Below are positions 4,060 through 36,344 of a DNA stretch of 54,809 nt, piece after piece (the first letter of the stretch is position 1; every line of letters begins with the position of its first letter). The DNA is from Candidatus Methanofastidiosum methylothiophilum. GTDB taxonomy: Archaea > Methanobacteriota_B > Thermococci > Methanofastidiosales > Methanofastidiosaceae. The translations under genes and the position numbers were made by a program. The stretch covers positions 1 through 54,809 of the forward strand of contig LNGC01000001.1 in NCBI GenBank assembly GCA_001587715.1, given 5' to 3'. Below the pieces are notes generated by a model that did not search any database, was not told where the DNA came from, and saw nothing but the letters and a program-made list of their open reading frames with translations.

Positions 4060-4830
4060 TTACACCTCTAATTTAGACTGTTCAACATATTTCCGAAGTC
4101 TATTATCAATAATATCACAATACTTAGGCTCCTTTTCTATGAGGACACCTTCACGATTATATTTTTCACATACAACCCCCACAGTACCAGATCCAGCAAA
4201 AGGATCAAGAACCATATCTTTCTCATTAGATAAACTTAAAACCAACCTCTCAATTAATGCCTCTGGGAATTGACAGGGATGTTCTGTCTTTTCAGGGTGA
4301 TTATGAACCACATTCGGAATATACCACACATCACCCGGATTTTTCCCTAAAGGATTGCAGCTGTATTTTCCCTTCTTATCCCCTTTAAAATGTTTCTTTC
4401 GAGGATATTTTTGGGGAATCCTAACCAGGTCTAAATTAAAAATATAATCATCTGTTTTAGTAAACCACAAAACAGTTTCATAGCGCCCGCTAAATCTGTT
4501 ATTTGAGTGTAATCCATAGTCAAAGGTCCAGATGATACGGTTCTGGAATTTCAACCCCAAATCAGTAAAAATGTTAAAAAGATAAATATCAAGCGGTATT
4601 CTCTTCTTACCCTTAACATAAGTCCCAACCTGCCAACAGATGGAACCTGTATCTTTTAAGGTTCGTACACATTCTTTTATGATTTTGGCTTGTTGTTCTT
4701 TGTATTCTTCGAGATCTAAGTTATCATCATATTCTTTCCCAATGTTATAGGGGGGACTGGTGATGATTAATTGGATTTTTTTGTCTTGTATTAAGGGTAA
4801 GAAATTTTTACAGTCTTCATTAAAAACCAT
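4060..4830 (-). CDS. DNA methyltransferase (N4-C/N6-A, beta class)
   Basis: 256 aa with an N-terminal SPPY catalytic motif and a C-terminal DPFAGSGT AdoMet motif. This is the typical order of beta-class amino-methyltransferases. No adjacent restriction enzyme. Confidence 0.85.
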   Translation of the reverse strand: MVFNEDCKNFLPLIQDKKIQLIITSPPYNIGKEYDDNLDLEEYKEQQAKIIKECVRTLKDTGSICWQVGTYVKGKKRIPLDIYLFNIFTDLGLKFQNRIIWTFDYGLHSNNRFSGRYETVLWFTKTDDYIFNLDLVRIPQKYPRKKHFKGDKKGKYSCNPLGKNPGDVWYIPNVVHNHPEKTEHPCQFPEALIERLVLSLSNEKDMVLDPFAGSGTVGVVCEKYNREGVLIEKEPKYCDIIDNRLRKYVEQSKLEV

Positions 4831-6523: not shown

Positions 6524-6570
6524 TCTATAGCCACCTCTTATTTTTTAGGTATTTATATCTATATTCCTTA

Positions 6571-6601
6571 TCCCTTATATATGATTCTACTCAGTAGAAT
6601 C
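6571..6601 (-). promoter_or_regulatory. operator palindrome (GATTCTAC-TCA-GTAGAATC, 6583-6601) fused to a minus-strand TATA box (TATATAAG, 6574-6581); copy 3
   Basis: Aligns with 8943-8978 and 16538-16573 with 4 differences. Two of these are compensatory and keep the dyad. The ATG of 6281-6523 lies about 50 nt downstream. Confidence 0.5.
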
Positions 6602-6880
6602 TATCTCCTCTTTTAATGACCCTATAAACTGTTTAATCAAATCTACTTTCATTTGATCATGTTTCCTATTTAATCTAAAAGCCTCCTTTTTTGCAGTGCT
6701 TTTATCAATAAAAGATTTATCTAATGGTTTTTTCTTTAAAGTATCATAAACTCTCCATTCTGGATAAAGCTGATTAACATGATACCGATCTGTTATTTGG
6801 GGAGAAAAAAACTGGAATAACCCTAATAAATTCTCTTCTGTTTTAGTTAATTCCATATCCTTAAATCTTTCATTATCCAT
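6587..6880 (-). CDS. hypothetical protein (97 aa)
   Basis: ORF track. I moved the start to ATG 6880, preceded by GGAGGTAATTTGG. Confidence 0.5.
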   Translation of the reverse strand: MDNERFKDMELTKTEENLLGLFQFFSPQITDRYHVNQLYPEWRVYDTLKKKPLDKSFIDKSTAKKEAFRLNRKHDQMKVDLIKQFIGSLKEEIDSTE

Positions 6881-6901
6881 CCAAATTACCTCCATAACTT
6901 T

Positions 6902-8870: not shown

Positions 8871-8942
8871 ATTAAGCCACCTCTATAGTTTTTTTTTGAG
8901 GAGTTTTTTTCATCCCTCCTCTGTTTAATCTATTAGATTTTT

Positions 8943-8978
8943 CTCCCTTATAAATGTTTCTACTAAGTAGAAACTAAA
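8943..8978 (-). promoter_or_regulatory. operator palindrome (GTTTCTAC-TAA-GTAGAAAC, 8956-8974) fused to a minus-strand TATA box (TTTATAAG, 8947-8954); copy 2
   Basis: 36 bp identical to 16538-16573. ATG 8870 lies about 80 nt downstream on the minus strand. Confidence 0.5.
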
Positions 8979-9034: not shown

Positions 9035-9066
9035 TAATTAAATAAATAAAAAAAGGTATAGTGGGA

Positions 9067-9150
9067 TTTTTGTATTACAGGAGTACAACTGTAATACAAA
9101 AAAAACAGGGTACCTCTCAAAAAAAATAATGTAATACAACTGTAATACAA
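9067..9150. repeat. iteron-like cluster: four copies of TGTAATACAA (one inverted), including a perfect 14-bp inverted repeat
   Basis: TTTTTGTATTACAG at 9067-9080 and CTGTAATACAAAAA at 9089-9102. Direct copies at 9090-9099, 9130-9139 and 9141-9150, each followed by an A-run. Confidence 0.8.
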
Positions 9151-9158
9151 AAAAAAGA

Positions 9159-9563
9159 TTATAAAAATTCAATTTCATTAGCTAAAACATTCTCTAACTC
9201 TTTAACCGATATTCCTAACCTATTACTCCATCCTACCACCATCTCCCCATCTATATTACCTGTAGCTAAATACCTACTCCTGATTCTTTCTATACAGGTA
9301 GTCCATAATTCTTTATCAGCTTTACTCTCAACTTTCTCCAGGTCATCTAACCGTTTACTTAGATCCTCTATTTCTTTATAATGATAATCTATTTGTATTC
9401 TTAAATATTCTTTTTCTGCTGAGATTGTTAGATTATCATATAAAGCTTTTCTAACTATTTCACTTTTATTAAGTCCTAGCTCCTCTGCCTTTTTAAGTAA
9501 ATCAACTGGTACCCTTGCTGACATAATAGCAGTTTCAGCTCCTCCTTTTTTCTTTCTACCCAT
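9159..9563 (-). CDS. ribbon-helix-helix (CopG-like) N-terminal domain protein with coiled-coil C-terminus
   Basis: AIMSARVPVDLLKKAEELGLNKSEIVRKALYDNL fits a strand-helix-helix pattern. I moved the start to ATG 9563 after GAGGTGGCTATA. Confidence 0.55.
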   Translation of the reverse strand: MGRKKKGGAETAIMSARVPVDLLKKAEELGLNKSEIVRKALYDNLTISAEKEYLRIQIDYHYKEIEDLSKRLDDLEKVESKADKELWTTCIERIRSRYLATGNIDGEMVVGWSNRLGISVKELENVLANEIEFL

Positions 9564-9631
9564 TATAGCCACCTCTATTTTTTTTTATTGATTTATATTT
9601 TAATATGTTAATATATTTATATTTTTATATT

Positions 9632-9853
9632 TTATTCTCCCTCTGGTTTAACTAACCTCCCTAACTCCTTAACCCCTAAAAACCTATAACCATCCCCATC
9701 TATCTCATAAACAGCTCCACATATACACTCATTTTTAAAACTTTCTTCCACATCATTAACTCCACCATAAACCTTACTTTTTAAACGGGTATTCCATGGC
9801 TTCAACTTCCTACCACATACCTTACATTTACCGTTCATCATACCCCTCATCAC
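9632..9853 (-). CDS. zinc-ribbon protein (73 aa)
   Basis: ORF track. CKVCGRKL ... CICG pairs. Confidence 0.5.
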   Translation of the reverse strand: MMRGMMNGKCKVCGRKLKPWNTRLKSKVYGGVNDVEESFKNECICGAVYEIDGDGYRFLGVKELGRLVKPEGE

Positions 9854-13735: not shown

Positions 13736-14019
13736 TTTATCTCCTCTACAGAACTCCAGTATAAGCTAAACCAGTTTTTAAGCCTTGAAATGTATGTTAT
13801 AATAATTTTCAGGTTAGGGATCTGGATCTTATTTTTAGTAGTTTGAGCTGGATCCTGTATTGGGGGTAAATCCATATCCTCAAAATATGCTTTTTCTCCT
13901 TTACTGCTCCAGCCTGGAACTCCTCTAAAAGCCTTTTTGTTTTCCTGTACTTTCTTATCTATTTCAGAAAGTTTTAGATTATCCTCTGCCTGTTTAACTA
14001 TGCTCTGAGTACTTCTCAC
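13732..14019 (-). CDS. hypothetical protein (95 aa), GTG start
   Basis: ORF track. The start is placed at GTG 14019, at canonical spacing after GAGGTGGCTAAA. The track start is the GTG inside the SD. Confidence 0.5.
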   Translation of the reverse strand: MRSTQSIVKQAEDNLKLSEIDKKVQENKKAFRGVPGWSSKGEKAYFEDMDLPPIQDPAQTTKNKIQIPNLKIIITYISRLKNWFSLYWSSVEEIK

Positions 14020-14030
14020 TTTAGCCACCT

Positions 14031-14177
14031 CTATACTTTTTCCAGTTTATTGTTTAACTTCTCTGTTTTAGTTCTCATCCAAATTAACATCATTAACCCT
14101 ACTAAACCGAGTATAGTAACAGTAACTCCTACAGCTATTCCTATCTGGTAATCTGAGATTGTTACAATCCATGCCAC
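14031..14177 (-). CDS. small single-TM protein (48 aa), GTG start
   Basis: Hand translation (M)AWIVTISDYQIGIAVGVTVTILGLVGLMMLIWMRTKTEKLNNKLEKV*. GGAGGTGA lies 4 nt upstream. Confidence 0.35.
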   Translation of the reverse strand: MAWIVTISDYQIGIAVGVTVTILGLVGLMMLIWMRTKTEKLNNKLEKV

Positions 14178-14198
14178 AGTTTCACCTCCTATTTTTTT

Positions 14199-14402
14199 TT
14201 AAAACCCTCTGGTTAGTATTGCCTCAATTGCTGCCAGGATCCTAGTATTCACTTTCAGGAAGATCCCATCTGGATTATTTTCCATGTTCTCTTTACAGTA
14301 CTGATCCATACAGGGTTTACAGATAGTTTCTCCTGTATCACGGTTCCAGTAGTTTATAGGGTTTCCATCCCCATTACTACATCTTAAAGCTTCTAAACTC
14401 AT
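14199..14402 (-). CDS. hypothetical Cys-containing protein (67 aa)
   Basis: ORF track. Canonical start motif. Confidence 0.5.
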   Translation of the reverse strand: MSLEALRCSNGDGNPINYWNRDTGETICKPCMDQYCKENMENNPDGIFLKVNTRILAAIEAILTRGF

Positions 14403-14451
14403 GCTATAGCCACCTCTATCGTTTTTTCCTACACTATTTTAAAAAAATATT

Positions 14452-15282
14452 TTATGAGAGATTAGCTCTCCCATTCTCCTGTAACTCTTTATTAATCTCT
14501 TTAACAGCCTTATTTATCACTTTTTTAACTTTCCTAGGTGCCTCTTTAGGTTTTTTAAAAAAATCATCTAAATTACCTAATCTCCTCTCTATAGCCTCCA
14601 TTCTATCCTTTTTAGTTTTGTACTGCCTGTAACCCTCTACTATGTTTACTTTACTTTTTTTGATTCTTTCTAGTTTCACCTCCCCCTCTAGGGTTTTTAA
14701 TCCTCTAGTGAACTTAATATTTTCTACAGCCTCTCCATTTTTAAATGTCTGCTCTACTCTGCCACCTATCATGATACTAGCTTTTTCTATTCCTTCTTTT
14801 CCTGCTATATCGTTCATTACATCTATTATCTCACCTGTATCCATATTCAGGCTGATAGATGCTCCGATATGGTAGCTGCCACAATCCCGATCTACACTTT
14901 TTCCAGGCTGAGATCCTCCCTCGGTATGATCTGTTATATCTGTAATGTTCTCCTGTACTCTTTCATCCTTTAGGAACTTACTCATTAGCTCAGGATTATC
15001 TTTAACATACAGATTAGTTACTCTAAATGAGCAGATTAATCTGGCTCTGCCTAATTGTTTGAGGTTTCCCATAAAATTAACAATCTCAGAGGGATAGTTA
15101 CCCCCTGTAAAATATTTCTCATGAAAGGAGCAGTAAACCCTATCTCCCCAGTTTACCCTTTTAGCCTGAGTTAGGGGGATGTTCCTGCTTATTCCTTTCT
15201 TTTTAGCTTCTTTTAAAAAAGAATTGTAGTTTTTTCCTATAAATAGGATATGTTCTTTTTGTTTGTTTGTTTGTTTTTTCAT
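14452..15282 (-). CDS. hypothetical protein (276 aa), largest protein of the early block
   Basis: ORF track. Canonical start motif. I recognised no motif. Confidence 0.6.
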   Translation of the reverse strand: MKKQTNKQKEHILFIGKNYNSFLKEAKKKGISRNIPLTQAKRVNWGDRVYCSFHEKYFTGGNYPSEIVNFMGNLKQLGRARLICSFRVTNLYVKDNPELMSKFLKDERVQENITDITDHTEGGSQPGKSVDRDCGSYHIGASISLNMDTGEIIDVMNDIAGKEGIEKASIMIGGRVEQTFKNGEAVENIKFTRGLKTLEGEVKLERIKKSKVNIVEGYRQYKTKKDRMEAIERRLGNLDDFFKKPKEAPRKVKKVINKAVKEINKELQENGRANLS

Positions 15283-15371
15283 ATTTAGCCACCTCTATTT
15301 TTTTTGGATATAAAAATATAAAAATATTTTTATATAATTATATTAAGATTTACCCCTATATAAATCTTACC

Positions 15372-15719
15372 TCATAAATCTATAAACTTCTTATCAGCCT
15401 TCTCCCTACACTCCTTAGAACAGTAAGCAACCTCACCAAAAATATTATCAGGATATTTAGCCATATAAAAAGGAATATCCATAGGCTTATTACACTCACT
15501 ACATTTATCAATCATTATAGGCTTAAAACCTGAGCAGCCTCTAGAATCCCCATCATAAGCCTCATTCATCTCATCAGTATCCAGCTCATCCTCCAGATCA
15601 CAGTAAAACTCCTCCTCCCTAGGCTCATTCCAGCCATCCCCAGAATAACCTATATGTCCATGAATACAATAATCACAGGTAGGAACAGCAGCAAAATCCA
15701 TAAATCTAACTTTACCCAT
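15372..15719 (-). CDS. Cys-rich (multi zinc-ribbon-like) protein
   Basis: ORF track, 115 aa with CDYCIH, CSGF, CSECNK and CSKEC. Confidence 0.55.
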   Translation of the reverse strand: MGKVRFMDFAAVPTCDYCIHGHIGYSGDGWNEPREEEFYCDLEDELDTDEMNEAYDGDSRGCSGFKPIMIDKCSECNKPMDIPFYMAKYPDNIFGEVAYCSKECREKADKKFIDL

Positions 15720-15745
15720 AAATAGCCACCTCTAAAAAAATAAAA

Positions 15746-16261
15746 TTACTGGTACTCCCAGTAAAATTTTTCATCCCTAAATTTAGTTATGTTTCCTTTA
15801 GCTGCCTCTAATATAATTAACTCCTCTAAGATTCTAAATACTGATTTTAACTCATCTCTACCCATATTTTTATATTTTTTATCTCCTAGGAGTTTAGCTA
15901 AAAATCCAAATTGAGAGGGGTTAGTTTTTTGAGAGGCTAAAACACCAAAATAATTTTGGTATTCATCTCTAACAACTAAAACTTTATGTTTATCCTCTGC
16001 ATTCAGATTTACACCACAAAAAACATTTAAATCACTAGTAGCACAGTAATTACTAAGAGGATCATCAAACTCCCTATAATCCTCAGCTTTAAAAATAGCA
16101 TCTCTCTCCTGGTTAATTATGTAAAATCCTGTCAGAAAATCCTCATCTTTCTCAAAAACAGGGGAATCACATTCAGGGCATAAAACATACCATTCACTAT
16201 GTAACCCTATATCAAACTCTAACCCACATTTTCCACATTTTTTTATATTTTTTTCTACCAT
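15746..16261 (-). CDS. zinc-ribbon protein (171 aa)
   Basis: CGKCG...CPECD at the N-terminus. I moved the start to ATG 16261 after GAGGTGGCTGCA. Confidence 0.55.
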   Translation of the reverse strand: MVEKNIKKCGKCGLEFDIGLHSEWYVLCPECDSPVFEKDEDFLTGFYIINQERDAIFKAEDYREFDDPLSNYCATSDLNVFCGVNLNAEDKHKVLVVRDEYQNYFGVLASQKTNPSQFGFLAKLLGDKKYKNMGRDELKSVFRILEELIILEAAKGNITKFRDEKFYWEYQ

Positions 16262-16305
16262 TGCAGCCACCTCTATAGTTTTTTTTTAAGAAAATAAGAA
16301 AAAAA

Positions 16306-16467
16306 TTAAAATTCAGCTACTATATCTCTGCCTCCTAGAAAACTGTTTATATTTGTGGATACCCTCACTCCTTTTACTATATCCAGTTCCTGTACTTCAA
16401 TATCAAATCCTTTAAAAATAATTCTAGCTTCTCTCCATCCGTATTCATTTAGTTTTAGTTTTTGCAT
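16306..16467 (-). CDS. small protein (53 aa), first gene of the leftward early operon
   Basis: Hand translation MQKLKLNEYGWREARIIFKGFDIEVQELDIVKGVRVSTNINSFLGGRDIVAEF*. Canonical start motif. Lies downstream of operator/TATA copy 1. Confidence 0.45.
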   Translation of the reverse strand: MQKLKLNEYGWREARIIFKGFDIEVQELDIVKGVRVSTNINSFLGGRDIVAEF

Positions 16468-16537
16468 ATTTAGCCACCTCTAGTTTTTTTTGGAGTCAGG
16501 TTTTACCTCCTGCCTCTGTATAGTATATTAGAAAGAA

Positions 16538-16573
16538 CTCCCTTATAAATGTTTCTACTAAGTAGAAACTAAA
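16538..16573 (-). promoter_or_regulatory. operator palindrome (GTTTCTAC-TAA-GTAGAAAC, 16551-16569) fused to a minus-strand TATA box (TTTATAAG, 16542-16549); copy 1
   Basis: 36 bp identical to 8943-8978. It sits between the leftward operon (ATG 16467) and the plus-strand RHH gene. Confidence 0.55.
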
Positions 16574-16574
16574 C

Positions 16575-16582
16575 TTTATATA
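16575..16582 (+). promoter_or_regulatory. consensus archaeal-type TATA box TTTATATA for the plus-strand RHH gene
   Basis: It lies 6 bp right of the palindrome and about 53 nt before ATG 16635. The predicted TSS near 16605 leaves a roughly 30-nt leader containing GGGAGGTG. Confidence 0.4.
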
Positions 16583-16634
16583 TGTTAGCAACACATATAA
16601 AAATATAAATATATAAAAATATGGGAGGTGTAAA

Positions 16635-16796
16635 ATGTCAAAAAAAGAAGCTACAGAACCTTTATACATAGATAAAATACCTGCAAAACTGAAATCAGAA
16701 CTTAAAATAAAAGCAATAGAAAGAAATCTCAAACTAAAAGAACTAGTCATAGAATATTTAGAAGCTGGATTAAAAAAAGATACTCCTACTGAATAA
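16635..16796 (+). CDS. ribbon-helix-helix (CopG/Arc-like) transcriptional regulator, candidate lysogeny repressor
   Basis: Hand translation MSKKEATEPLYIDKIPAKLKSELKIKAIERNLKLKELVIEYLEAGLKKDTPTE* is a textbook strand-helix-helix. GGGAGGTG lies 6 nt before the ATG. It is one of only two credible plus-strand genes and is below the ORF-track size cutoff. Confidence 0.65.
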   Translation: MSKKEATEPLYIDKIPAKLKSELKIKAIERNLKLKELVIEYLEAGLKKDTPTE

Positions 16797-17134
16797 GGTC
16801 TAACCCTACTATTTTTTAAAGGGTAAAAGGAGTTACCCATTACTCCCATTCCCTCAAATCCTTCATTAATCAAGATATAGCCACCTCTACAAAGGATTTT
16901 ATCATATAAAATATATGACAATAACACTTTTTTTTATATTATAACATCTGTATTACTTGTGAATTAAGATTTACCTCCAATTAAAGTAATAATATCCTCT
17001 GCTCTCTATCTAATTAATCCTTACACAAATATGATATTTATAGATTGTGATTACTATCTCAAAAAAATCTATAAAATCTATAAAAAAATATATTTTAAAA
17101 TTATTTAAAAAAAATGGATGAGAGCATTTGAGAA

Positions 17135-18388
17135 CTAATCATGATCTAACATCTTTCCCCTATATTTCTTTAAAGCCTCTCTAACTCCCTTATCAGTCTT
17201 AGCAGCTTCAAACATCCAACTAGTTTTATCTATAATATCCTCAATCTGAGAAAGTTTCTCATCATTCAGATCAGCCCTAGCCTCAGCAGCATTTAATTTA
17301 TTAACTATCTCCCTAACCTCTTCAGATTCAATCCTTTTAACTTTAACTTTCTCCAGGGTTATCTCAGGTAAAGCTTTAAGATACTGCTCTTTTAAATCCT
17401 CAGGGTTACTTCTAAAATAGGCTGCATTTTGATCATTTATTTTATGTCCTAAGAAAAAATCAATCTTTAATCTATCTACCCCTTTTTTAAATAGGGTAGA
17501 GCTAAACAGCTCTCTTAATTGATGAGAGGTTATAAAATGTCTGTTATTTTCTGCTCTCCTCTCAAACCCTACTTTTTCATTTAATCTAAGAAAAATTAGA
17601 GAGTATGGGTTAGGTCTAAGAAATTTATTATATTGATTTACAAATAAGAAATCTGAATTAGATCTGATCTGTTTGTTCTCCCTATTCCTATGTATCAAAT
17701 ATTGGATTATTGCTCTGGTACTTTCAGGACTGTTAAATGTAGTAAAATAATAACCTGTTTTATATCTATGAATACTCCAACAACCTATAAGATCCTCATC
17801 CTCTCTACTTTCCAGGATCTCTACAGTTTCCTCTATATCTACTCTCCTTTTTACTGGTAAGTTTTGGCTTTTTAGGAAATCAGAATAAGTAAGATGAGAT
17901 ACCTCACTTAATCCCATGCCTGAGCTGAGATGTAAAAGTATTAGAGCTTTATCCCTAATACCTGCCCTAAATACTAACCGTTTAACATCCTCCAAAGTGG
18001 GTAACTCACTAATCCCCCTCTGTATTACTTCATCCTTATTAGGCTTAGTACTGATTTTAGGAGGTATTATTATCTCATTATCTCCATAAAAGGCTTTTAC
18101 ACTTATCACATAAGACCTTACTGTATTTATGCTTTTACCTCTCTTTTTTAGGTCTTTTATGTAACTATTGAAGTACTTTTTTATTTTCCTATGTTTAATT
18201 TTAACATTGTTATCCTGCTCCTCCTCAGCCTCTTCTATTAATGCAGTAGGGAGTTTCTGGATATAATTACAGTAGTCTTTTAAGGCTGTAATATGGAATC
18301 TTTTAGTATTTTCTGCTATATTGCGATCTAAAAAATCCTCTACTAAGGCATCATTATTTATATCCTCTAAGGTATATTCCATAGTCAT
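17135..18388 (-). CDS. int: tyrosine recombinase / integrase
   Basis: 417 aa. The N-terminus looks like a SAM-like core-binding domain. The C-terminal box II reads HQLRELFSSTL...LGHK...AAYF (H-x-x-R, G-H, Y). There is no SD before the ATG. Confidence 0.85.
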   Translation of the reverse strand: MTMEYTLEDINNDALVEDFLDRNIAENTKRFHITALKDYCNYIQKLPTALIEEAEEEQDNNVKIKHRKIKKYFNSYIKDLKKRGKSINTVRSYVISVKAFYGDNEIIIPPKISTKPNKDEVIQRGISELPTLEDVKRLVFRAGIRDKALILLHLSSGMGLSEVSHLTYSDFLKSQNLPVKRRVDIEETVEILESREDEDLIGCWSIHRYKTGYYFTTFNSPESTRAIIQYLIHRNRENKQIRSNSDFLFVNQYNKFLRPNPYSLIFLRLNEKVGFERRAENNRHFITSHQLRELFSSTLFKKGVDRLKIDFFLGHKINDQNAAYFRSNPEDLKEQYLKALPEITLEKVKVKRIESEEVREIVNKLNAAEARADLNDEKLSQIEDIIDKTSWMFEAAKTDKGVREALKKYRGKMLDHD

Positions 18389-18412
18389 AGTAATTTTTTA
18401 GATCTTTCCAAC

Positions 18413-18420
18413 ATATAAAA
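18413..18420 (-). promoter_or_regulatory. TATA-like box (minus strand TTTTATAT) at leaderless spacing from the integrase ATG
   Basis: The box centre is about 27-28 nt upstream of ATG 18388 and there is no SD, consistent with an archaeal leaderless mRNA. Confidence 0.35.
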
Positions 18421-18663
18421 TATGACATAACTCTAATACTATTTCTATAATAAGCTTTCAGTTATATCACATTTATACCCAATTTTGATATAACCTTTAT
18501 ATAATAATTATTACATTTTAAAATATAAAAATGTAGTGTAACCAGTTTCCTAAAAACCAAAAATAAGAAACCAGTTTCTTTTTTATCCAAAATAAAAAAC
18601 TAATTTCCAGTAAAACATTAAATAGAAACTTCTTAAATAATTTAAAAATAGTAGTAATACTTT

Positions 18664-18831
18664 TTATTTTTCCTGATCTGATTTAAGTATAACCTGGTAA
18701 AAAAAACCTTCATTATCACATTTACAATTATAAATAGTAGTAAAAGATCCAGCTTTCCCAAAACTTTTAACACTTAAAACAGTACTCTCCCTATTACAGA
18801 AAGGGCATAATCCAGGTAGAACATCCTCTAT
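18664..18831 (-). CDS. zinc-ribbon ORF (55 codons) with no ATG/GTG/TTG; ATA sits at the canonical start position
   Basis: Hand translation IEDVLPGLCPFCNRESTVLSVKSFGKAGSFTTIYNCKCDNEGFFYQVILKSDQEK*. It is preceded by GGGGTGGCTATT, a variant start motif. Confidence 0.3.
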   Translation of the reverse strand: MEDVLPGLCPFCNRESTVLSVKSFGKAGSFTTIYNCKCDNEGFFYQVILKSDQEK

Positions 18832-18963
18832 AATAGCCACCCCCTAAAAAAAAATAAAATTATAGGTAAAATCTCTAAAAAATACCTATAACCCTACAAA
18901 ATTTAATTTTTTTAAGTACACATATTTAGTCATCTCTTGATAGTAGATTCTATGGATTTTAAT

Positions 18964-18995
18964 ACTCCCTATAGGTTCTTATAGGGAGTTTTTTT
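18964..18995 (+). terminator. perfect 10-bp hairpin (ACTCCCTATA-ggttct-TATAGGGAGT) followed by a T-run, on the plus strand
   Basis: Read directly. Its orientation is opposite to all surrounding genes. Confidence 0.4.
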
Positions 18996-19096
18996 ATAAA
19001 ATCCTATCCAAAATACAGCCCTAATCATATATAGGTCTATATAGTTAGTCATCTACTATTATGATAGATGCCAGTGAAATACAGCCTATTAATCTA

Positions 19097-19207
19097 TTAA
19101 TTAATAGGGAATATTGGAGCTGTTCTTAACCTCCTCCTCTTCCTATGCTCATTACTATCTTTTTTATAATTCACATAATCACATTTACAGTTACAGTACT
19201 TGCTCAA
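19097..19207 (-). CDS. small basic Cys-rich peptide (36 aa), TTG start
   Basis: Hand translation (M)SKYCNCKCDYVNYKKDSNEHRKRRRLRTAPIFPIN*. AGGAGGT lies 7 nt before the TTG, overlapping the end of the peptidase gene. Confidence 0.25.
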   Translation of the reverse strand: MSKYCNCKCDYVNYKKDSNEHRKRRRLRTAPIFPIN

Positions 19208-19212
19208 ATTAT

Positions 19213-20094
19213 CTACCTCCTACCTATAAGACTTAAAAACAGATCTTTTAACTTATCTAAAAAGCTTTTATTTTCAGCTACAACAGCAGCCATATAAGCA
19301 TTTTTGAGGAGAACCCAAAAATCAGAGGCTAATCCTGTACTAAAATACCTGTAATCTATCCAGCCATATCCTTTATTTCCCCATGATTCCCCCCATGAGT
19401 TACGGATCATAAAAGCTCCTTTACCATCATTTATGTTATAGTTATCATCATATCCAACTATAACCATAGCATGACCCCCTATAGATTGATCAGAAGGCTT
19501 AGGATAAGGAATATCAGGGCTGTTAATACAGTACCCTTGATCATTCAGGATATTATTATACAAATTAGTTCCAAAATTAACAGGATAACCCTGAGCTATA
19601 AACTGCTTAATCTGGTTTAAGCTGGTAAGCCTAGTATAAGTAACAGCCTTATAGATTAAGGCATCAGTAAAAGCTTTCTCTGGAGGTGTATCATCAAACT
19701 TTTTAACATCATAAGGATACTCCTCCTCTGGAGGGGTACCATACTTACCTAAAGCTTTAATAGTATCCCTTATACTAGCTCCAGTATCCCCATTAACCCC
19801 CATTATATACCTTCTAGTTACATAATAAAGGAACAGCCTAGAAGCTATTACATAAGGCTTTTTACTAAAATTTTTCTCATTAAACTGTAAAGTAGCACAT
19901 TGACTATTAGCAGTACAGGATCCCAGATCTCCCTGATCCATAATAGGAGTATCTTTACTAGTTAAATCTACCTTGGAGGGTAGTTTACTCACTTTTATTG
20001 CCTTGTAAAACTCTTTTACCTGCTCATGTTTTACAGTATAATCTCTTTCATCATATTTATCCTCTAACCATCCAAAATTAAACTTATTCTCCAT
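19213..20094 (-). CDS. papain-family (C1-like) cysteine peptidase, candidate lysis enzyme
   Basis: All catalytic signatures are present: QGDLGSCTANS (Gln/Cys), GGHAMVIVGYD (His), IRNSWGESWGNKGYGWI (Asn-Ser-Trp). It is the last gene of the late operon. Confidence 0.85.
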   Translation of the reverse strand: MENKFNFGWLEDKYDERDYTVKHEQVKEFYKAIKVSKLPSKVDLTSKDTPIMDQGDLGSCTANSQCATLQFNEKNFSKKPYVIASRLFLYYVTRRYIMGVNGDTGASIRDTIKALGKYGTPPEEEYPYDVKKFDDTPPEKAFTDALIYKAVTYTRLTSLNQIKQFIAQGYPVNFGTNLYNNILNDQGYCINSPDIPYPKPSDQSIGGHAMVIVGYDDNYNINDGKGAFMIRNSWGESWGNKGYGWIDYRYFSTGLASDFWVLLKNAYMAAVVAENKSFLDKLKDLFLSLIGRR

Positions 20095-20113
20095 CTATAG
20101 CCACCTCTAAATT

Positions 20114-20362
20114 TTATCCATCAGTATTACCAGTAGGTTTACCTCTCCAGCAGCTTCTAAAAATATTAGATTCATCTAAAGAAACTGCCTCAGTTCTCCC
20201 AATAATCCTAAGATTATTATACCTATTTGAGGGTAAAACCTGCTCTACATAAATCTCCTCTAAAATATTACCTGGAACTAAACCAGAAAGTCTTAATATT
20301 TGATTAAGAGTAATATCATCAAATCTCCAATGATACTTCTCTCCATTAATTACTACATTCAT
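20114..20362 (-). CDS. hypothetical protein (82 aa)
   Basis: ORF track. I moved the start to ATG 20362, after GGGGAGTAAGTG. Confidence 0.5.
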   Translation of the reverse strand: MNVVINGEKYHWRFDDITLNQILRLSGLVPGNILEEIYVEQVLPSNRYNNLRIIGRTEAVSLDESNIFRSCWRGKPTGNTDG

Positions 20363-20365
20363 CAC

Positions 20366-21925
20366 TTACTCCCCTATGATCATTAGTGAGGGGGAGCTGA
20401 TTAAGCTAGTAGCTATTTTCATATCAGTATAGGATACTGTTTTTACATTTCTATCAGGATCTGCTATGGTTACAGTCTGATTTTTTACATTAACTCCCAC
20501 TATTACTATATAGTGTCCAAAGCTGCCAGAGTATCCTGGGAAGTTCCAGCCAAAATTAGTTTTAAATGTATGAGCTGAGATATTATTTACTCCTGAAAAT
20601 AGAGCAGCAGATAAACCCTGATCTCCAGTCATAATATTAACAATAGCCCTTTTACCAGCCCTGATATAATTTGCTATTCCCTGGAGTCCTGTACCTGCAA
20701 AACTAATAAACTCAGATTTTAACTTTTTACCAAACTTACTATTTAACCATGGAGTTACTTTTAACATCCCTGCATGACCTGTACCAGCATAACTCATACT
20801 AGTACCAGCTACTTTAGCTATAACCATCTCAGCAGAGTAAGGATCATTTAAATCAGCCTGTTCACTACCTAACATATACATATCATAGGTGCTGCAAACA
20901 ATCAGCCAACTAGTAGGACCACATATATAATCATTCTGCTGGAAAAAATAATTAAAAGGAGGGATCCTTACATAATCAGAGTTATTCTCTGCTACTGGTT
21001 TAGAGTCTATATAGTTAGGTTCTCTACTAAATCCTTTTTTAAAGGCATCCCATCTCTTTTTTATCTCATCATACTTAGCCTTAGTGAAATACTGATTAGT
21101 TTTAACCAGGCTTACCCTAAGATACACCTTGGAGGGTGTACCTTTATAGTTCTCTACAGCAGTTATCATAGCCTTAAAATCAGCCTTTTGGATTCTAACA
21201 TTTTCTTTATCTATACATACCCCATCCATATTACCACTCCCTACAGCCCATTTTACCATACTTACTAACAGATCTGGATCCTGAGGAGTTAATTCTGGAT
21301 GAGGACCCCCTAATATAACTCTACCTTTACCATGGGTATCTCCAGCTATAGCTCCATACATATAGTTATCAGTTACTTTAGGATCATTGTAGATAGCAAA
21401 GATAATAACTGAGCTACCCTCTGGAGATAAAAAACCAGGTCCATTATAATGAGCCATTTTCTGTACTCCTCCAGATTTTCCTAACTGTAAACATTCAGGT
21501 CTTACCATCAAAATATTTATAGCATCCTCAGAATCATCTAAACCTTTACATTCTATAGTTCCTACCCCTATACCATCATAAACCTTATTAATCTTATTAC
21601 CATCCTTATCTATGTTCCAAACACTTTTAGAAAGATAGTAAGCTCCAGCACATATACCAGATACTGATCCTCCCTCCTTTACATACTGCCTAATCCCTGC
21701 TGAATAAGGAGCTAAAACTTTAAGGTATTTATTACCCCCATCACCTCCAGGAATATTAAAATGATCATACTTCTTTAAATTCCCATAAGTAGGAGGGATT
21801 AAAGATTTACCACTATTAGGATCATTGGTATAATCTACATCCATCCCTGCATTCTTTAGAATAGTATAGGTATTTTTAGGACCATTTATAGCACTAGCTA
21901 CCCCATTATAAATTAAAACCTTCAT
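20366..21925 (-). CDS. two-domain protein: N-terminal class-I glutamine-amidotransferase-like fold and C-terminal C39-like (papain-fold) cysteine peptidase
   Basis: N-terminus: MKVLIYNG...FNIPGG...GGSVSGICAGAYYLS, a GATase1/BPL_N-like nucleophile elbow. C-terminus: QQNDYICGPTSWLIV ... FGHYIVIVGVN..VTIADPD, matching the Q..CGPTS / GHY..v.G / DP pattern of C39-like peptidases. Confidence 0.6.
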   Translation of the reverse strand: MKVLIYNGVASAINGPKNTYTILKNAGMDVDYTNDPNSGKSLIPPTYGNLKKYDHFNIPGGDGGNKYLKVLAPYSAGIRQYVKEGGSVSGICAGAYYLSKSVWNIDKDGNKINKVYDGIGVGTIECKGLDDSEDAINILMVRPECLQLGKSGGVQKMAHYNGPGFLSPEGSSVIIFAIYNDPKVTDNYMYGAIAGDTHGKGRVILGGPHPELTPQDPDLLVSMVKWAVGSGNMDGVCIDKENVRIQKADFKAMITAVENYKGTPSKVYLRVSLVKTNQYFTKAKYDEIKKRWDAFKKGFSREPNYIDSKPVAENNSDYVRIPPFNYFFQQNDYICGPTSWLIVCSTYDMYMLGSEQADLNDPYSAEMVIAKVAGTSMSYAGTGHAGMLKVTPWLNSKFGKKLKSEFISFAGTGLQGIANYIRAGKRAIVNIMTGDQGLSAALFSGVNNISAHTFKTNFGWNFPGYSGSFGHYIVIVGVNVKNQTVTIADPDRNVKTVSYTDMKIATSLISSPSLMIIGE

Positions 21926-29839: not shown

Positions 29840-32800
29840 TCACACCTTATATATGGATAATCCTTTTTGCCCTAACTCTACTCCTAACTCCTCTTTTACT
29901 ATTCTAATTACTTTCTCTGCTAATGTTTCTGCTGCCTCATCAGCCTCAGCCTCATTCCTAGCATTAATATTACCAATTTCAAAATGTAGATGTAACTCTC
30001 CAGAGCTTCCAGAACCATTATCATTAGATCTTAAATCCTGATTTACAATATCCATAGTCCTTTTAGGAACTTCAAAACTAGAAGGGGATATACTATTAAT
30101 AGCCAAATTCATCCCTTTACTTAATGAACTTCTAAATGATGCTACTTTACTGGTTAATCCAGATACATCCATACCATTAATATTCCCTATTGTACTCCTA
30201 GCATGATTACCTAAAGCTCTAAAATGATCCTTACCTGCTGATGACATGTCATTTAAGGCAGGTATTATACCAGGAGAACACCCTGCTATAGCACAATATA
30301 TTTTTTTAAGCCAATCCATAGCACCACTAGCATTTAAACCCTTCATAAATCCATCAAGAGCATTTTTAGCAGCATCAAAGAATTTTTGAGGTAAACTAGT
30401 ACACCAATTCAGGAAATCATTAAAAGCATTTGGTATAGTCTGAGTAAAGAAACTTAAAACAGCATTCCAGGCATCAGTTAAACCCTTCTCTAGATTAGAG
30501 ATTATGCTAACCCCTAAATTATAGATCTGATTAGGGATACTTTCTAACCATTTAATAAAGTTACTAAAGCTATCTGGAACAGTTTTAGTAAAGAATTTAA
30601 CAACTGCATTATAAGCATCCGTTAAACCTTTCTCCAGATTTTTAATAACCTCCTCCCCTGCATCATATAACTGTTTAGGGAGATTCTGAATCCATTTAAT
30701 AAAGTTACTAAAGCTATCTGGAACAGTTTTAGTAAGGAAAGTAGTTACTCCTTTATAACCATCCTCTAATCCCTTTTGTAGGTTTCCTATAAACTGAGAT
30801 CCCCATTTGCTTAACTGCTCTGGTAAAGTACCCAGGTAAGTTATAAAATCAGTGAATATTTTAGTAATATTGCCAACTGATGATTTAACCCCTGCTACAG
30901 CTCCATTAACTCCTCCAGAAATAGAAGATCCTAAATTACTTATCTCTGCTGATACTTGAGCAGGTAAACCCTTAACAAAAACTATTAAATTATAAATACC
31001 TTCCAAAACCACGCTAAGAGCATTACCAACAGCCAAACCAACAGTATAAGGGATATTACTAAGGAAAGTAGTAAAATTAGCTAAAGCCCCAGTGAGTATA
31101 GTTGGGATCTGGCTGATAAAACCTGTAACCTGCTGAGGTAGAGTAGATAACCAGGAAACAAAATTACCAAATTGAGTTTGTATATTCTGCCAGATCAGAT
31201 TAAAATTCCCAAAAACATTAGCCCAATCCCAGGGTACTAACTGCATAGGCACCCCAGTAAGCCAACTCATAAAACCAGTGATAGCTCCTTTAACTCCCTC
31301 AAAGAAACTCCAAACAGGGGATATATCATTAGGATCCTGATCTCCAAATAAGATCCCCATCAAATTTACTTTTACTCCTCCCTCACCTGATAATAATTTT
31401 TGAAGGTTAGGAATAAAATTATCAACAGCAGAACGGAAAGGATTAACTATATTACTTGTAAACCAGCCCACAAATCCATTATAAAAATCCTCTCCAAATA
31501 CAGCCTTACCAAGTTTCTCAGGAGTCATCCATCCTGTTACACTCTGTATAAAATCACGGAGCTGCTGAGGTAAAAGCTGATAAGTACCACCTAAATAAAT
31601 ATTCCAAAGTAGCTCTACTGGATTCTGAGAGAGCATATCAGTATAATGATATAACCCCTCTGCTGCTGATTGAATAACAGCCAGAGGTATAGCCACATCC
31701 CCTATCAGTTTAGGAATCCCTTTAAGTAACCCTGTACTCAAACCCTCAGGGATCTTTAACCCCACACCTTCCAAAGAGGGTAACTTAATACCAACACTAC
31801 TAATAGCATCAGATAACTTACCAGGAACACTCCTACCCCATCCTACTATTTTCTCTAAGAATCCTGGAGCTTTAGCCTCCCAACTACCATCTAACCCTTT
31901 AACCATGTCAATATCTTTAGTTTGAGTACTCCAGCCAGTCCATCCTTTAATAGTTTCTACTACTCTGGATCCAAAGTTTCTAAGTTTACCTAAAAAGCCA
32001 GTTTCATCTACTGCTCCATCTAAAGCCTTAGTTATGCCCTGGCTCTTCTCAGCAGCAGCCTCCCCCCATCCAGTCCAGCCTTTAATAGTTTCGAGGATAC
32101 GAGAACCCATAGTTTCAAGTTTACTCCTAAGTGTATCCTGCCATACCTTCAAAAAATCAAATTTAGTAGTATCAAAAACAGAATTTAAAGCCTTACTTAA
32201 ACTACCTCCCATACCTACAACTGCTGCTGTAACACCTGTAATTACAGAAACAATAGATCCAAAAAAGGAAATCCAATCACCATAAACTACCTGGAAATCT
32301 TCCAACATAGCCATGAACTTTTGCCATGCAGTAGTATGCTCCTGAACACTCTGAGTATTCCTATCAATTTTCCCAGAATACTTAGCAGTTTCCTCTGATG
32401 CCCTGGATAAAGCTCCAGGCTGCATACCTAACCTCTGTTCTAATATGGATAAATCGCCATTACTTTCCTTAATGGCTTCATTCAATCCCTGGTAAGCTGC
32501 TCTGCCTCCACCAAACTTTTTAGTAGCAGCAGCTATAAGTACAGCAGTTTGATCGATATTAAGCCCCATTTCTTTAAAGGTGCTGTCATATTTCTGCATC
32601 CATTGGACATAGGTAGAAAATCCCCCTACTACATTAGCTTGAGCATAAGCTATAGCATTAAAGGCTTCAGGCAGATTATTTAAATCAATACCCATTACAA
32701 CAATAGAATTAGCAAATTTATTTATAGTTTCCTCAGATGATCCAGTAGCTACTCTCATCTCATTCATGGCAGTGGCACCACGTCTAAGAGAATCTTCTGA

Positions 32801-36270: not shown

Positions 36271-36344
36271 AGCCTATGACCGGATTTGAACCGGCATTTA
36301 GTGAGTCTGCAACCCACCGCCTAACCAGGCTAAGCTACATAGGC
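36271..36344 (-). tRNA. tRNA-Cys: tRNA-Cys (anticodon GCA)
   Basis: Hand-folded cloverleaf of the minus-strand sequence GCCTATG-TA-GCTT-AGCCTGGTT-AGGC-G-GTGGG-TTGCAGA-CTCAC-TAAAT-GCCGG-TTCAAAT-CCGGT-CATAGGC-T. The 7-bp acceptor stem is perfect. The discriminator is U73, the CysRS identity element. No CCA is encoded and a T-run follows. Confidence 0.85.

What the first reader, a model, noticed from the sequence alone, without database searches (positions are those of the whole stretch)
16538..16796. Compact back-to-back promoter switch with one dyad operator between two divergent TATA boxes, next to an RHH gene and the integrase
A perfect palindrome GTTTCTAC-TAA-GTAGAAAC (16551-16569) is flanked on two sides. 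On the left is a minus-strand TATA (TTTATAAG, 16542-16549) that faces the long leftward early operon (ATG 16467). Six bp to the right is a consensus plus-strand TTTATATA (16575-16582) that faces a 53-aa ribbon-helix-helix gene (16635-16796). That gene is one of only two plus-strand genes in 55 kb and is convergent with the integrase. One bound dimer or tetramer could therefore control both promoters at once, giving a minimal lysis-lysogeny switch. The RHH gene is missed by the ORF track. The track instead shows a 143-aa antisense ORF.
Basis: partly seen in the sequence, partly recalled or inferred. Interest (0 to 1): 0.65.

Follow-up and report, generated by a model that had tools for sequence, protein, structure and literature searches.

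The report
Repressor-operator switch in a methanogen virus
A temperate tailed virus of Methanobacterium-like archaea carries a real 53-residue ribbon-helix-helix regulator gene beside a conserved 19-bp palindrome, and that palindrome is built into an early-promoter cassette used three times, so this is a plausible but untested member of a known kind of viral on/off switch.

Summary
The perfect dyad GTTTCTAC-TAA-GTAGAAAC (16551-16569), the two flanking TATA-like boxes and the 53-codon plus-strand ORF are all at the stated coordinates.

The ORF is a real gene. It has a conserved Shine-Dalgarno (SD) sequence and start codon, dN/dS is about 0.3, and gene callers call it. Profile and fold searches place it among Arc/CopG-type ribbon-helix-helix (RHH) proteins. 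The 143-aa antisense ORF is an artefact of an AT-rich antisense frame.

The host is archaeal (Methanobacteriales), so reading the boxes as TATA/BRE promoters is appropriate.

The main correction concerns the dyad. It is not a one-off shared operator. It is part of a leftward promoter cassette (dyad + BRE + TATA + leader). The cassette recurs exactly at 8956-8974 and, with symmetric arm changes, at 6583-6601. Only the first copy also faces the RHH promoter.

In relatives the 8-3-8 geometry is kept, the arms change symmetrically and the spacer is free.

Most likely the RHH protein binds the dyad as a dimer of dimers. That would block TFB at the BRE inside the arm next to the TATA box, repress three early units and regulate its own promoter. 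Binding, transcription starts and the sign of regulation are untested.

It is a new member of a known kind (SSV1 F55, SIRV1 SvtR, P22 Arc/Mnt).

The parts
16551..16569 (.). Operator O_A: perfect dyad GTTTCTAC-TAA-GTAGAAAC. Half-site centres are 11 bp apart.
   Evidence: Conserved in L001, L013-15 and L018. No variant within 16544-16590 in 4 metagenome runs.
16542..16549 (-). TATA box of leftward early promoter P_A (TTTATAAG on the minus strand; TTTATATA in L001).
   Evidence: It is part of the cassette conserved at all three sites.
16550..16556 (-). Predicted BRE of P_A (minus strand AGAAACA, with G at -6 and A at -3). All but its last base (16550) lies inside the TATA-proximal dyad arm.
   Evidence: Read from the sequence. 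The G-6/A-3 rule for strong archaeal BREs is quoted from PMC11065993.
16468..16520 (-). Predicted leader of the leftward early unit: conserved ACAGAGG start region, a hairpin, an A-run and the extended ribosome-binding site AGAGGTGGCTA.
   Evidence: 96-nt repeat D12 shared with site B at 80% identity. Alignment. Hairpins. The transcription start is inferred, not mapped.
16306..16467 (-). First gene of early unit A (53 aa, function unknown).
   Evidence: Variants in run X1 fall at third codon positions. AF2 was uninformative, pLDDT 49.
16569..16582 (+). Predicted BRE (CTAAAC) and TATA box (TTTATATA) of the RHH promoter. The dyad touches only the -6 position.
   Evidence: Identical in L001 and L013. 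In L018 the TATA box (TTTATAAA) lies 16 nt from the dyad.
16623..16630 (+). Shine-Dalgarno sequence GGGAGGTG of the RHH gene.
   Evidence: Conserved in all four relatives.
16635..16796 (+). RHH regulator gene (53 aa).
   Evidence: dN/dS is 0.28-0.31. Homologs P0002, P0026 and P0027. 149 remote relatives, of which 32 of 60 tested hit Pfam RHH_10. The family profile hits PDB 2kel (SvtR) at E=2.3e-7. AF2 and Foldseek results.
16812..16817 (+). T6 run directly after the RHH stop codon; likely archaeal oligo-T terminator.
   Evidence: Conserved as T5-T6 in all relatives. Its function is inferred.
8947..8974 (-). Second cassette copy P_B: TATA box (8947-8954) plus an identical dyad O_B (8956-8974). 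It drives the unit starting at ATG 8870.
   Evidence: A site-B-like copy is also present in the L001-type relative (X2 record 7).
6574..6601 (-). Third cassette copy P_C: TATA box (6574-6581, TATATAAG) plus variant dyad O_C, GATTCTAC-TCA-GTAGAATC (6583-6601). It overlaps the stop codon of gene 6587-6895 and drives the unit starting at ATG 6523.
   Evidence: The arm change is symmetric (T>A paired with A>T).
16496..16927 (-). 143-aa antisense ORF (125 aa from the TTG at 16873). Not a gene.
   Evidence: dN/dS is 0.73-1.26 in the overlap. The start is not conserved: a 2-nt indel in L013 and no start codon in L018. It would run through a promoter cassette that is non-coding at site B. Its third codon positions coincide with those of the RHH frame, so stop codons are rare by construction.
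17135..18388 (-). Tyrosine integrase, convergent with the RHH gene.
   Evidence: Pfam Phage_integrase. Relatives occur only in Methanobacteriales genomes and viruses.

Best explanation
The window is a temperate tailed virus of a Methanobacterium-like archaeon. Gene 16635-16796 encodes a small Arc/CopG-type ribbon-helix-helix DNA-binding protein.

Its likely operator is the 19-bp dyad. The two 8-bp half-sites have centres 11 bp apart, which fits two RHH dimers on one face of the DNA.

The dyad is a built-in part of an early-promoter cassette: dyad, then BRE, then TATA box, then a roughly 50-nt leader, then the ribosome-binding site. The cassette occurs three times and heads leftward transcription units at 16467, 8870 and 6523. 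In each copy the half-site nearest the TATA box contains the BRE.

Bound protein would therefore compete with TFB/TBP and shut off all three early units. That is the role expected of a lysogeny-maintenance repressor such as SSV1 F55.

At the 16551 copy the same site sits 5 bp upstream of the regulator's own TATA box, centred near -44. Occupancy there would also tune the regulator's own synthesis, either up or down.

Shown here: the gene, its fold class, the cassette repeats, conservation, and symmetric co-variation of the arms. Inferred: which protein binds, the transcription start sites, repression as the outcome, and the lysogeny role.
For: The gene is real:
- dN/dS is about 0.3 in its frame and about 1 in the antisense frame.
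- SD and ATG are conserved.
- Gene callers call it in the window and in relatives.

RHH fold:
- 149 remote homologs were found.
- 32 of 60 hit Pfam RHH_10, 24 hit FitA-like_RHH and 17 hit 56B_RHH.
- The family profile hits SvtR (2kel, E=2.3e-7), a CopG-family protein, ParG, ORF56 and Mnt.
- AF2 gives two helices after an extended N-terminus. Nearly all Foldseek hits, including the best, are RHH proteins.

Cassette:
- Three copies are present.
- G-6/A-3 BRE positions lie within the arm (with the rule from PMC11065993).

Conservation:
- Arms are identical in L001 and L013 while the spacer differs (TAA versus TTG).
- L018 has GTTTTTAC-CAG-GTAAAAAC, and site C has GATTCTAC-TCA-GTAGAATC.
- The geometry is kept and the changes are symmetric.
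- 14 of 16 arm positions are kept in L018 although its flanks barely align.
- There are no variants in 16544-16590 in four runs.

Co-occurrence: each of the four relative groups whose contig reaches upstream of the RHH gene (L001, L013-15, L018) has the dyad.

Archaeal host: integrase relatives are found only in Methanobacterium genomes and Methanobacteriales viruses.

Precedent: F55, SvtR and AvtR are small viral RHH regulators that bind their own and other viral promoters (PMC5569661).
Against: - There are no binding, transcription-start or expression data. The RNA runs hold almost nothing from this region.
- The protein itself gives no direct Pfam hit, so RHH assignment is transitive. The Foldseek E-values are weak.
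- In L018 the core dyad is 7 nt from the left TATA box and 16 nt from the right one. Direct BRE occlusion is therefore not conserved.
- A site upstream of the TATA box is also where archaeal activators bind.
- A second RHH-like protein (9159-9563), the unknown first early gene and host factors are alternative binders.
- The close relatives are few and similar, so much of the conservation could be recent common descent.
- Symmetric arm changes are equally expected for a hairpin.
Confidence: 0.55

Rival explanations
1. The parts are the same but the role differs. The RHH protein is an early feedback regulator (Cro- or Aca-like). It damps strong immediate-early promoters after infection and does not maintain lysogeny.
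For: Archaeal viruses commonly share one strong BRE/TATA regulatory sequence among early genes. Some carry inverted repeats overlapping the BRE, and the regulator gene itself is preceded by the motif (PMC11065993). SvtR and AvtR are not lysogeny repressors. Here the cassette has a strong BRE and is reused.
Against: The gene is the only divergently transcribed gene at the integrase/early boundary, which is the classical position of a maintenance repressor. It has its own promoter pointing away from the early units and is not part of them.
Confidence: 0.2
2. The dyad is bound by something else: the second RHH-like protein (9159-9563), the product of the first early gene, or a host factor. Alternatively it acts as an upstream activating site for the early promoters.
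For: The dyad lies upstream of the TATA box, where archaeal activators act. In L018 it clears the BRE. A second RHH-like gene sits directly upstream of cassette B. Variant site C could belong to a second specificity.
Against: In the window the arm covers BRE positions -9 to -2, which is hard to reconcile with simultaneous TFB binding. The 53-aa RHH gene and the dyad co-occur in every relative whose contig reaches that far, including L018. In L018 both the protein's N-terminal strand and the arms differ.
Confidence: 0.15
3. The dyad works as an RNA or DNA hairpin, for example a 3' end or processing signal for transcripts arriving from upstream. It is not a protein-binding site.
For: It folds as an 8-bp stem (-8.1 kcal/mol, z = -3.3). 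The arm changes are compensatory (site C and L018). At site C it overlaps the end of the upstream gene.
Against: Six of the eight arm positions are invariant across very divergent relatives, and no G-U intermediates are seen, which suggests sequence-specific reading. No T-run follows the stem. It keeps a fixed register with the TATA/BRE in three cassettes. It lies upstream of the start sites it accompanies.
Confidence: 0.06
4. The 143-aa minus-strand ORF is the real gene, and the RHH ORF and the 'promoters' are chance features inside it.
For: The ORF is open in all four relatives. In the window it follows a canonical viral ribosome-binding site with a TTG start (AGAGGTGGCTATATCTTG). psiM2 and psiM100 have an annotated ORF30 in the equivalent position.
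Against: dN/dS is 0.73-1.26 against 0.3 for the RHH frame. The frame from the TTG is broken in L013, and L018 has no start codon. The stretch is also a repeated non-coding cassette at 8947-8974. Its hydrophobic, low-complexity product is what the antisense strand of a Lys/Glu-rich gene gives. It has no Pfam hit.
Confidence: 0.03

Closest known systems
SSV1 F55 (Fuselloviridae lysogeny regulator)
   Same: F55 is a roughly 6-kDa viral RHH protein. Its sites lie in its own promoter and in several early promoters, overlapping the BRE and transcription start. It is proposed to hold the virus in the lysogenic/carrier state (PMC5569661).
   Different: F55 binds tandem direct repeats (ATAGATAG), not an inverted repeat. 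SSV1 is a crenarchaeal spindle virus, not a tailed virus. No sequence relationship was tested here. The divergent back-to-back layout is not the SSV1 arrangement.
SIRV1 SvtR (protein 56B, PDB 2kel) and AFV6 AvtR
   Same: SvtR is the best solved-structure match of the family profile (E=2.3e-7). Both are small archaeal-virus RHH regulators that repress their own promoter and bind imperfect inverted repeats. AvtR covers the region between two neighbouring promoters.
   Different: They come from lytic or chronic crenarchaeal viruses with no integrase context. The SvtR high-affinity site is about 80 nt from the BRE/TATA and is thought to work by spreading along the DNA. The similarity to the window protein is only transitive.
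Phage P22 immI region (Arc and Mnt RHH repressors at divergent Pant/Pmnt); from my own knowledge
   Same: RHH proteins bind as dimer-of-dimers to roughly 21-bp symmetric operators with half-site centres about one helical turn apart. One operator between back-to-back promoters affects both, and Mnt represses one promoter while favouring its own.
   Different: P22 uses bacterial sigma-70 promoters. There are two RHH proteins and two operators. The operator is not replicated at remote early promoters.
Lambda-type CI/Cro switch
   Same: The repressor gene is divergent from the early lytic operon, lies next to the integration module, and has an operator in the shared spacer.
   Different: Here there is a single dyad rather than three graded operators. 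The regulator is an RHH of 53 aa with no cleavable C-terminal domain. No Cro-like partner was identified. The promoters are archaeal TBP/TFB promoters.
Shared early-gene regulatory sequences of archaeal viruses (PMC11065993)
   Same: A virus-specific cassette with a strong BRE/TATA is reused in front of several early genes. In some viruses it carries inverted repeats over the BRE that are predicted to bind a repressor.
   Different: Those were described in Sulfolobales viruses, mostly for single small anti-defence genes, with a wHTH Aca8 regulator. Here the cassettes head multi-gene units in a methanogen tailed virus.
MSTV1 (Methanobrevibacter smithii tailed virus 1) proposed switch
   Same: It is a temperate tailed virus of Methanobacteriales with a related integrase (27% identity). 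A lysogeny-lysis switch has been proposed from transcriptomes (PMC11375127).
   Different: The players proposed for MSTV1 are a wHTH protein and Orc1/Cdc6, not an RHH protein with a dyad.

Membership tests
Ribbon-helix-helix (Arc/MetJ/CopG) superfamily | Significant sequence-profile match to RHH families | tested here: met
   There is no direct Pfam hit at E<=0.1, so the assignment is transitive. A profile of the 4 close homologs finds 149 small proteins. Of 60 tested, 32 match RHH_10, 24 match FitA-like_RHH and 17 match 56B_RHH. The 60-sequence profile hits PDB RHH proteins: 2kel 2.3e-7, 9kkd 1e-4, ParG 4e-4.
Ribbon-helix-helix (Arc/MetJ/CopG) superfamily | [quoted passage not shown] | tested here: inconclusive
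   The AF2 monomer (pLDDT 72) has helices at 17-29 and 34-49 after an extended N-terminus. No strand forms in the monomer, as expected for an obligate dimer. Most Foldseek hits are RHH proteins (StnY, VapB, CopA, AmrZ, CopG, Arc, ORF56) but all have E>=0.7.
Ribbon-helix-helix (Arc/MetJ/CopG) superfamily | Dimer or tetramer binding to repeated DNA half-sites through the beta-ribbon | not testable with these tools
   Only the candidate site geometry is available: 8-3-8, centres 11 bp apart.
F55-type archaeal viral lysogeny repressor | Binding sites in its own promoter and in several early promoters, overlapping the BRE or transcription start | tested here: met
   Met at sequence level only. The dyad is present at three leftward early promoters, with the BRE inside the arm, and one copy lies 5 nt from the RHH TATA box.
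F55-type archaeal viral lysogeny repressor | Sites are tandem direct repeats (ATAGATAG) | tested here: not met
   The sites here are inverted repeats.
F55-type archaeal viral lysogeny repressor | Expressed in the lysogen and depleted on induction | not testable with these tools
   No lysogen or informative RNA data exist. Runs X4, X6 and X8 give almost no coverage.
Lambda-type CI/Cro switch | Repressor gene divergent from the early lytic operon, with a shared operator region | tested here: met
   Gene orientation and spacing were checked. The promoters are predicted, not mapped.
Lambda-type CI/Cro switch | Several adjacent operators of graded affinity, plus a Cro-like second repressor as the first early gene | tested here: not met
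   There is one dyad in the 167-nt spacer. The first early gene has no family and its fold is uninformative.
Type II toxin-antitoxin RHH antitoxin | A toxin gene co-transcribed immediately downstream | tested here: not met
   The RHH stop codon is followed by a T6 run, hairpins and the convergent integrase. There is no downstream plus-strand ORF.
Archaeal TBP/TFB promoter | TATA box TTTAWATA with a purine-rich BRE (G-6, A-3) upstream, in an archaeal host | tested here: met
   Sequence: TTTATAAG/TTTATATA preceded by AGAAACA, and TTTATATA preceded by CTAAAC, which has A-3 only. Host: integrase relatives are exclusively from Methanobacteriales. Transcription starts are not mapped.

The most novel reading that the evidence does not exclude
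A one-operator bistable switch in Archaea. A single RHH-bound dyad would repress the early promoter by occupying its BRE. From about -44 it would also stimulate the regulator's own divergent promoter, as lambda CI does at PRM or Mnt does at Pmnt. The same operator, copied into two remote early promoters, would make the whole early programme depend on one 53-residue protein.

A more remote extra is a possible translational layer. A conserved copy of the virus-wide extended ribosome-binding motif (complement of AGAGGTGGCTATA) lies just downstream of the RHH gene. That motif is present on about 32 viral genes and absent from host-like DNA, so it might mark translational control.
Probability: 0.12. 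Interest if true: 0.7.

Novelty: new member of a known kind. Interest (0 to 1): 0.4.

Why it matters
No lysis-lysogeny switch of a methanogen virus has been dissected. For MSTV1 only a transcriptome-based hypothesis with different players exists (PMC11375127).

This locus offers a small, fully specified test system: one 53-residue protein, one 19-bp site in three natural variants and contexts, and two back-to-back archaeal promoters. It could show how a repressor competes with TFB/TBP at a BRE.

It may also supply regulatable promoter parts for Methanobacteriales. The result also shows that longest-ORF tracks mislead in AT-rich archaeal viruses, and the same problem may affect ORF30 of psiM2 and psiM100.

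In concept, though, an RHH repressor with operators at early promoters is well known.

Tried and rejected
- DNA search of the phage collection with 14000-20500 found no match.
- Exact look-ups of window proteins found nothing on record.
- A dyad scan of viral contigs found nothing.
- RHH-profile scans of metagenome contigs and viral contigs, and an integrase scan of viral contigs, found no relatives.
- Contigs of more distant integrases (P0009, P0020, P0023, P0007) are other integrated elements without this RHH or dyad.
- RNA runs X4, X6 and X8 hold only 16824-17152, the conserved RHH-integrase spacer. This probably comes from relatives whose coding regions are too divergent to be laid. It gives no transcription-start information.
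- AF2 of the first early gene gave pLDDT 49, which is unusable. It has no similarity to the first early gene of L018.
- A covariation test of the RHH-integrase spacer as an RNA gave a weak covariation term of -1.06.
- A search for an att site against a Methanobacterium integrase junction found no match. In psiM100 the attL core lies upstream of int, so the spacer next to the RHH gene is probably not attP.
- dN/dS between psiM2 and psiM100 is saturated and does not discriminate between the strands. hhalign and Pfam on their RHH-like ORFs gave nothing.
- A bacterial sigma-70 reading (TTTATA-16-TATACT) was rejected because the host is archaeal and the -35/-10 spacing is not kept at site C.
Full report
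**1. What is in the sequence**

- A perfect inverted repeat GTTTCTAC-TAA-GTAGAAAC lies at 16551-16569.
- CTTATAAA lies at 16542-16549, which is TTTATAAG on the minus strand.
- TTTATATA lies at 16575-16582, with 5 nt between it and the dyad.
- A strong Shine-Dalgarno sequence GGGAGGTG lies at 16623-16630.
- A 53-codon ORF runs from 16635 to 16796.
- On the other strand the first gene of a long leftward gene array starts at ATG 16467, behind the ribosome-binding site AGAGGTGGCTA.

A 143-codon minus-strand ORF (16496-16927) covers the whole region. Only two plus-strand ORFs with a Shine-Dalgarno sequence lie outside minus-strand genes: this one and 33695-34051.

**2. Is it more than chance?**

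A single perfect 8-3-8 palindrome is not remarkable in this 33% G+C sequence. There are 7 in the window against 2.0 expected.

What is remarkable is recurrence.
- The same 19-mer, with about 14 nt of flank on each side, occurs again at 8956-8974.
- A variant, GATTCTAC-TCA-GTAGAATC, occurs at 6583-6601.
- The degenerate family pattern gives 3 hits against 0.00 expected.

Aligned on the minus strand, all three copies share TTTAG-dyad-CAT(T/A)TATAAGGGA. Copies A and B share a further 96-nt stretch at 80% identity. That stretch runs through a conserved ACAGAGG motif, a leader hairpin and an A-run to the ribosome-binding site and ATG.

So the dyad plus the minus-strand TATA box form a repeated leftward promoter cassette. 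The cassettes head transcription units that begin at 16467, 8870 and 6523. Only the copy at 16551 has a plus-strand TATA box and gene on its other side.

**3. Host and genome context**

The window is a tailed-virus genome with almost all genes on the minus strand.
- It has a terminase and a portal protein.
- It has a lysis module with a C1 peptidase.
- It has a tyrosine integrase at 17135-18388.
- The leftward array holds small genes, three DNA methyltransferases and several DNA-binding proteins.

The integrase has 50% and 41% identical relatives in a Methanobacterium MAG and in M. formicicum DSM 3637. In the phage collection it matches only viruses of Methanobacteriales: psiM2 at 39.5%, psiM100 at 36%, and also vir080, vir075 and MSTV1. 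The terminase also resembles those of methanogen viruses.

The host is therefore an archaeon, and TBP/TFB promoters (TATA box plus BRE) are the right frame of reference. A sigma-70 reading is possible by pattern but is not appropriate for this host.

**4. Which strand codes?**

The RHH frame is under purifying selection. dN/dS is 0.28-0.31 in three pairwise comparisons among the window, L001 and L013. The open antisense frame gives 0.73-1.26.

The antisense frame shares third codon positions with the RHH frame. Stops can arise in it only at rare dicodons, which explains why it stays open in all four relatives.

Its apparent start is a canonical viral ribosome-binding site plus TTG at 16871-16889. 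In L013 a 2-nt indel puts this start out of frame. L018 has no start codon at all.

The ORF would also have to read through a cassette that is plainly non-coding at 8947-8974. The gene callers behind the protein database call the 53-aa ORF in the window and in relatives. The 143-aa ORF is rejected.

**5. What the 53-aa protein is**

It has no direct Pfam hit and only three close homologs in 5.8 billion proteins: P0002, P0026 and P0027.

A profile of these four, searched exhaustively, finds 149 small proteins at E<=0.001. The shared pattern is x-L-x-I-x-(I/F)-P-x-x-L-K-x-x-L-K-I-x-A, then a turn, then L-K-E-L-V-I-E-x-L-E.

Of 60 of these proteins, 32 match Pfam RHH_10, 24 match FitA-like_RHH and 17 match 56B_RHH.

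The 60-sequence profile hits solved RHH proteins. The best is SIRV1 SvtR/56B (2kel, E=2.3e-7). Others are a CopG-family protein, ParG, pRN1 ORF56 and Mnt.

AlphaFold (pLDDT 72) gives two helices after an extended N-terminus. The Foldseek hit list consists largely of RHH proteins, although the E-values are weak.

The protein is therefore an Arc/CopG-type RHH protein by transitive evidence. It is not a toxin-antitoxin antitoxin, because no downstream partner gene exists.

**6. Conservation of the switch**

Four groups of related contigs carry the same arrangement.
- L001 has an integrase 56% identical.
- L013-15 have an integrase 85% identical. Two extra genes sit between int and the RHH gene.
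- L018 has an integrase 50% identical and an RHH protein 34% identical.

The dyad arms are identical in L001 and L013. The spacer differs (TAA versus TTG).

L018 has (CT)GTTTTTAC-CAG-GTAAAAAC(AG). The geometry is the same, one symmetric arm change is present, and 14 of 16 arm positions are kept although the flanks barely align. Site C in the window likewise differs by one symmetric change.

Four metagenome runs show no variant anywhere in 16544-16590, while positions on both sides vary. One of these runs also contains a site-B-type copy of the cassette.

The contigs of L013, L014, L015 and L001 all end inside the cassette. That is what a repeat does to short-read assemblies.

Invariant arm sequence, a free spacer, symmetric changes and no G-U intermediates fit a site read by a symmetric protein better than a mere hairpin.

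**7. Promoter anatomy and likely mechanism**

On the minus strand the TATA-proximal arm reads GTAGAAAC-A-TTTATAAG. This places G at -6 and A at -3 relative to the TATA box. Those are the positions quoted for strong TFB binding (PMC11065993). The leftward BRE therefore lies inside the operator arm.

An RHH dimer inserting its ribbon into that major groove should exclude TFB. That would repress all three early units.

The half-site centres are 11 bp apart, one helical turn. This is the arrangement used by dimer-of-dimer RHH repressors such as Arc and Mnt (my own knowledge).

On the other side the dyad touches only position -6 of the RHH promoter (CTAAAC-TTTATATA). Its centre is near -44 relative to a start predicted at about 16603-16607. 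That position is compatible with either negative or positive autoregulation.

Predicted starts are about 16516-16520 on the minus strand, at the conserved ACAGAGG motif, and about 16605 on the plus strand. They are inferences only.

In L018 the spacings differ: 7 nt on the left and 16 nt on the right. Direct BRE occlusion is therefore not strictly conserved. The right-hand shift is 11 bp, which is one helical turn.

**8. Alternatives**

- The protein may be an early feedback regulator rather than a lysogeny repressor.
- Another protein may bind the dyad. Candidates are the second RHH-like protein at 9159-9563, the unknown first early gene, or a host factor. The dyad might also act as an activating site.
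- The dyad may be an RNA hairpin.
- The antisense ORF may be the real gene.

These are weighed in the rival list. None is favoured by the data, but the first two cannot be excluded without experiments.

**9. Comparison with known systems**

The logic matches SSV1 F55. F55 is a small RHH protein with sites in its own and in early promoters, overlapping the BRE or transcription start, and it maintains lysogeny. The logic also matches SvtR and AvtR (PMC5569661).

The back-to-back layout resembles P22 immI (Arc/Mnt) and lambda OR.

Differences are:
- inverted rather than tandem repeats;
- one operator in the divergent spacer;
- the operator copied within a promoter cassette to two remote early promoters;
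- a euryarchaeal tailed virus as the carrier.

For Methanobacteriales viruses, the only switch proposal I found involves a wHTH protein and Orc1/Cdc6 in MSTV1 (PMC11375127).

**10. Verdict**

This is a new member of a known kind of system. It has moderate interest, mainly as a compact, testable model for repression at an archaeal BRE and for lysogeny control in methanogen viruses.

Noticed in passing
window, whole; for example 16470-16483, 8877-8890, 6529-6542: About 32 minus-strand genes are preceded by an extended, nearly invariant ribosome-binding motif A-GAGGTG-GCTA(T)A. This goes well beyond a Shine-Dalgarno sequence. It also occurs in relatives L001, L013 and L018. It is absent from about 53 kb of host-like Methanobacterium DNA and from the psiM2 and psiM100 fragments. 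The reason for the extra conserved GCTATA is unexplained.
   Followed up: partly
window 16871-16889: One copy of that motif plus a TTG start sits just downstream of the RHH gene and is invariant in all four relatives. No conserved ORF follows it: the frame is broken in L013 and L018 has no start codon. It could be a decayed gene start, a short leader, or an RNA element. The fold z-score is -3.4 on the minus strand, but covariation is weak.
   Followed up: partly
window 16902-16918 and 16928-16935: A second conserved dyad, TCATATA-AAA-TATATGA, is followed by a T8 run. It is present in all four relatives, with 9-bp arms in L018. It may be a terminator for the plus strand or a protein-binding site.
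   Followed up: no
window about 17040-17134; L018 2317-2420: The non-coding block next to the integrase stop codon is almost identical between the window, L001 and L018, although their integrases are only 50-56% identical. RNA-run contigs match 16824-17152. It could be a regulatory or recombination site. In psiM100 the att core lies on the other side of int.
   Followed up: partly
window 9159-9563: A second RHH-like protein of 134-137 aa (N-terminal sequence AIMSARVPVDLLKKAEELGLNKSEIVRKAL; weak RHH_1 and CcdA hits) is the last gene before cassette B. It is followed by two strong hairpins at 9060-9150, and an AT-rich palindrome lies upstream at 9590-9637.
   Followed up: no
window 15345-15368: Another leftward promoter, upstream of ATG 15282, has a similar TATA core (TTTATATAGGGG) enclosed by a different perfect dyad, AAGATTTA-N8-TAAATCTT. 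It may be the operator of a different regulator.
   Followed up: no
L021 (psiM2) 4488-4667 minus strand; L022 (psiM100) 3031-3207 minus strand: In psiM2 and psiM100 a conserved 58-59-aa ORF with an RHH-like pattern (VNLRV...LKIFKAIAMLKFEKTPITSAWEEAIDLFI) lies antisense to the annotated hydrophobic ORF30. It is just downstream of int and divergent from ORF31, with tandem repeats in the spacer. This is the same layout and the same strand ambiguity as here. The evidence is inconclusive: there is no Pfam hit and dN/dS is saturated.
   Followed up: partly
L013 12477, L014 6101, L015 2583, L001 1: Independent assemblies of relatives all break inside the promoter cassette, as expected if the cassette is repeated in those genomes too.
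   Followed up: partly
window 19213-21925: The lysis region encodes a papain-family C1 peptidase and a 519-aa protein with BPL_N and C39-like peptidase domains. It does not encode the transglutaminase-type pseudomurein endoisopeptidase of psiM2, whereas L018 has a Transglut_core gene.
   Followed up: no
window 36271-36344 (minus strand); 30367-30795: A tRNA-Cys gene lies among the structural genes. Three tandem 144-nt repeats lie inside the 1248-aa tape-measure-like gene.
   Followed up: no
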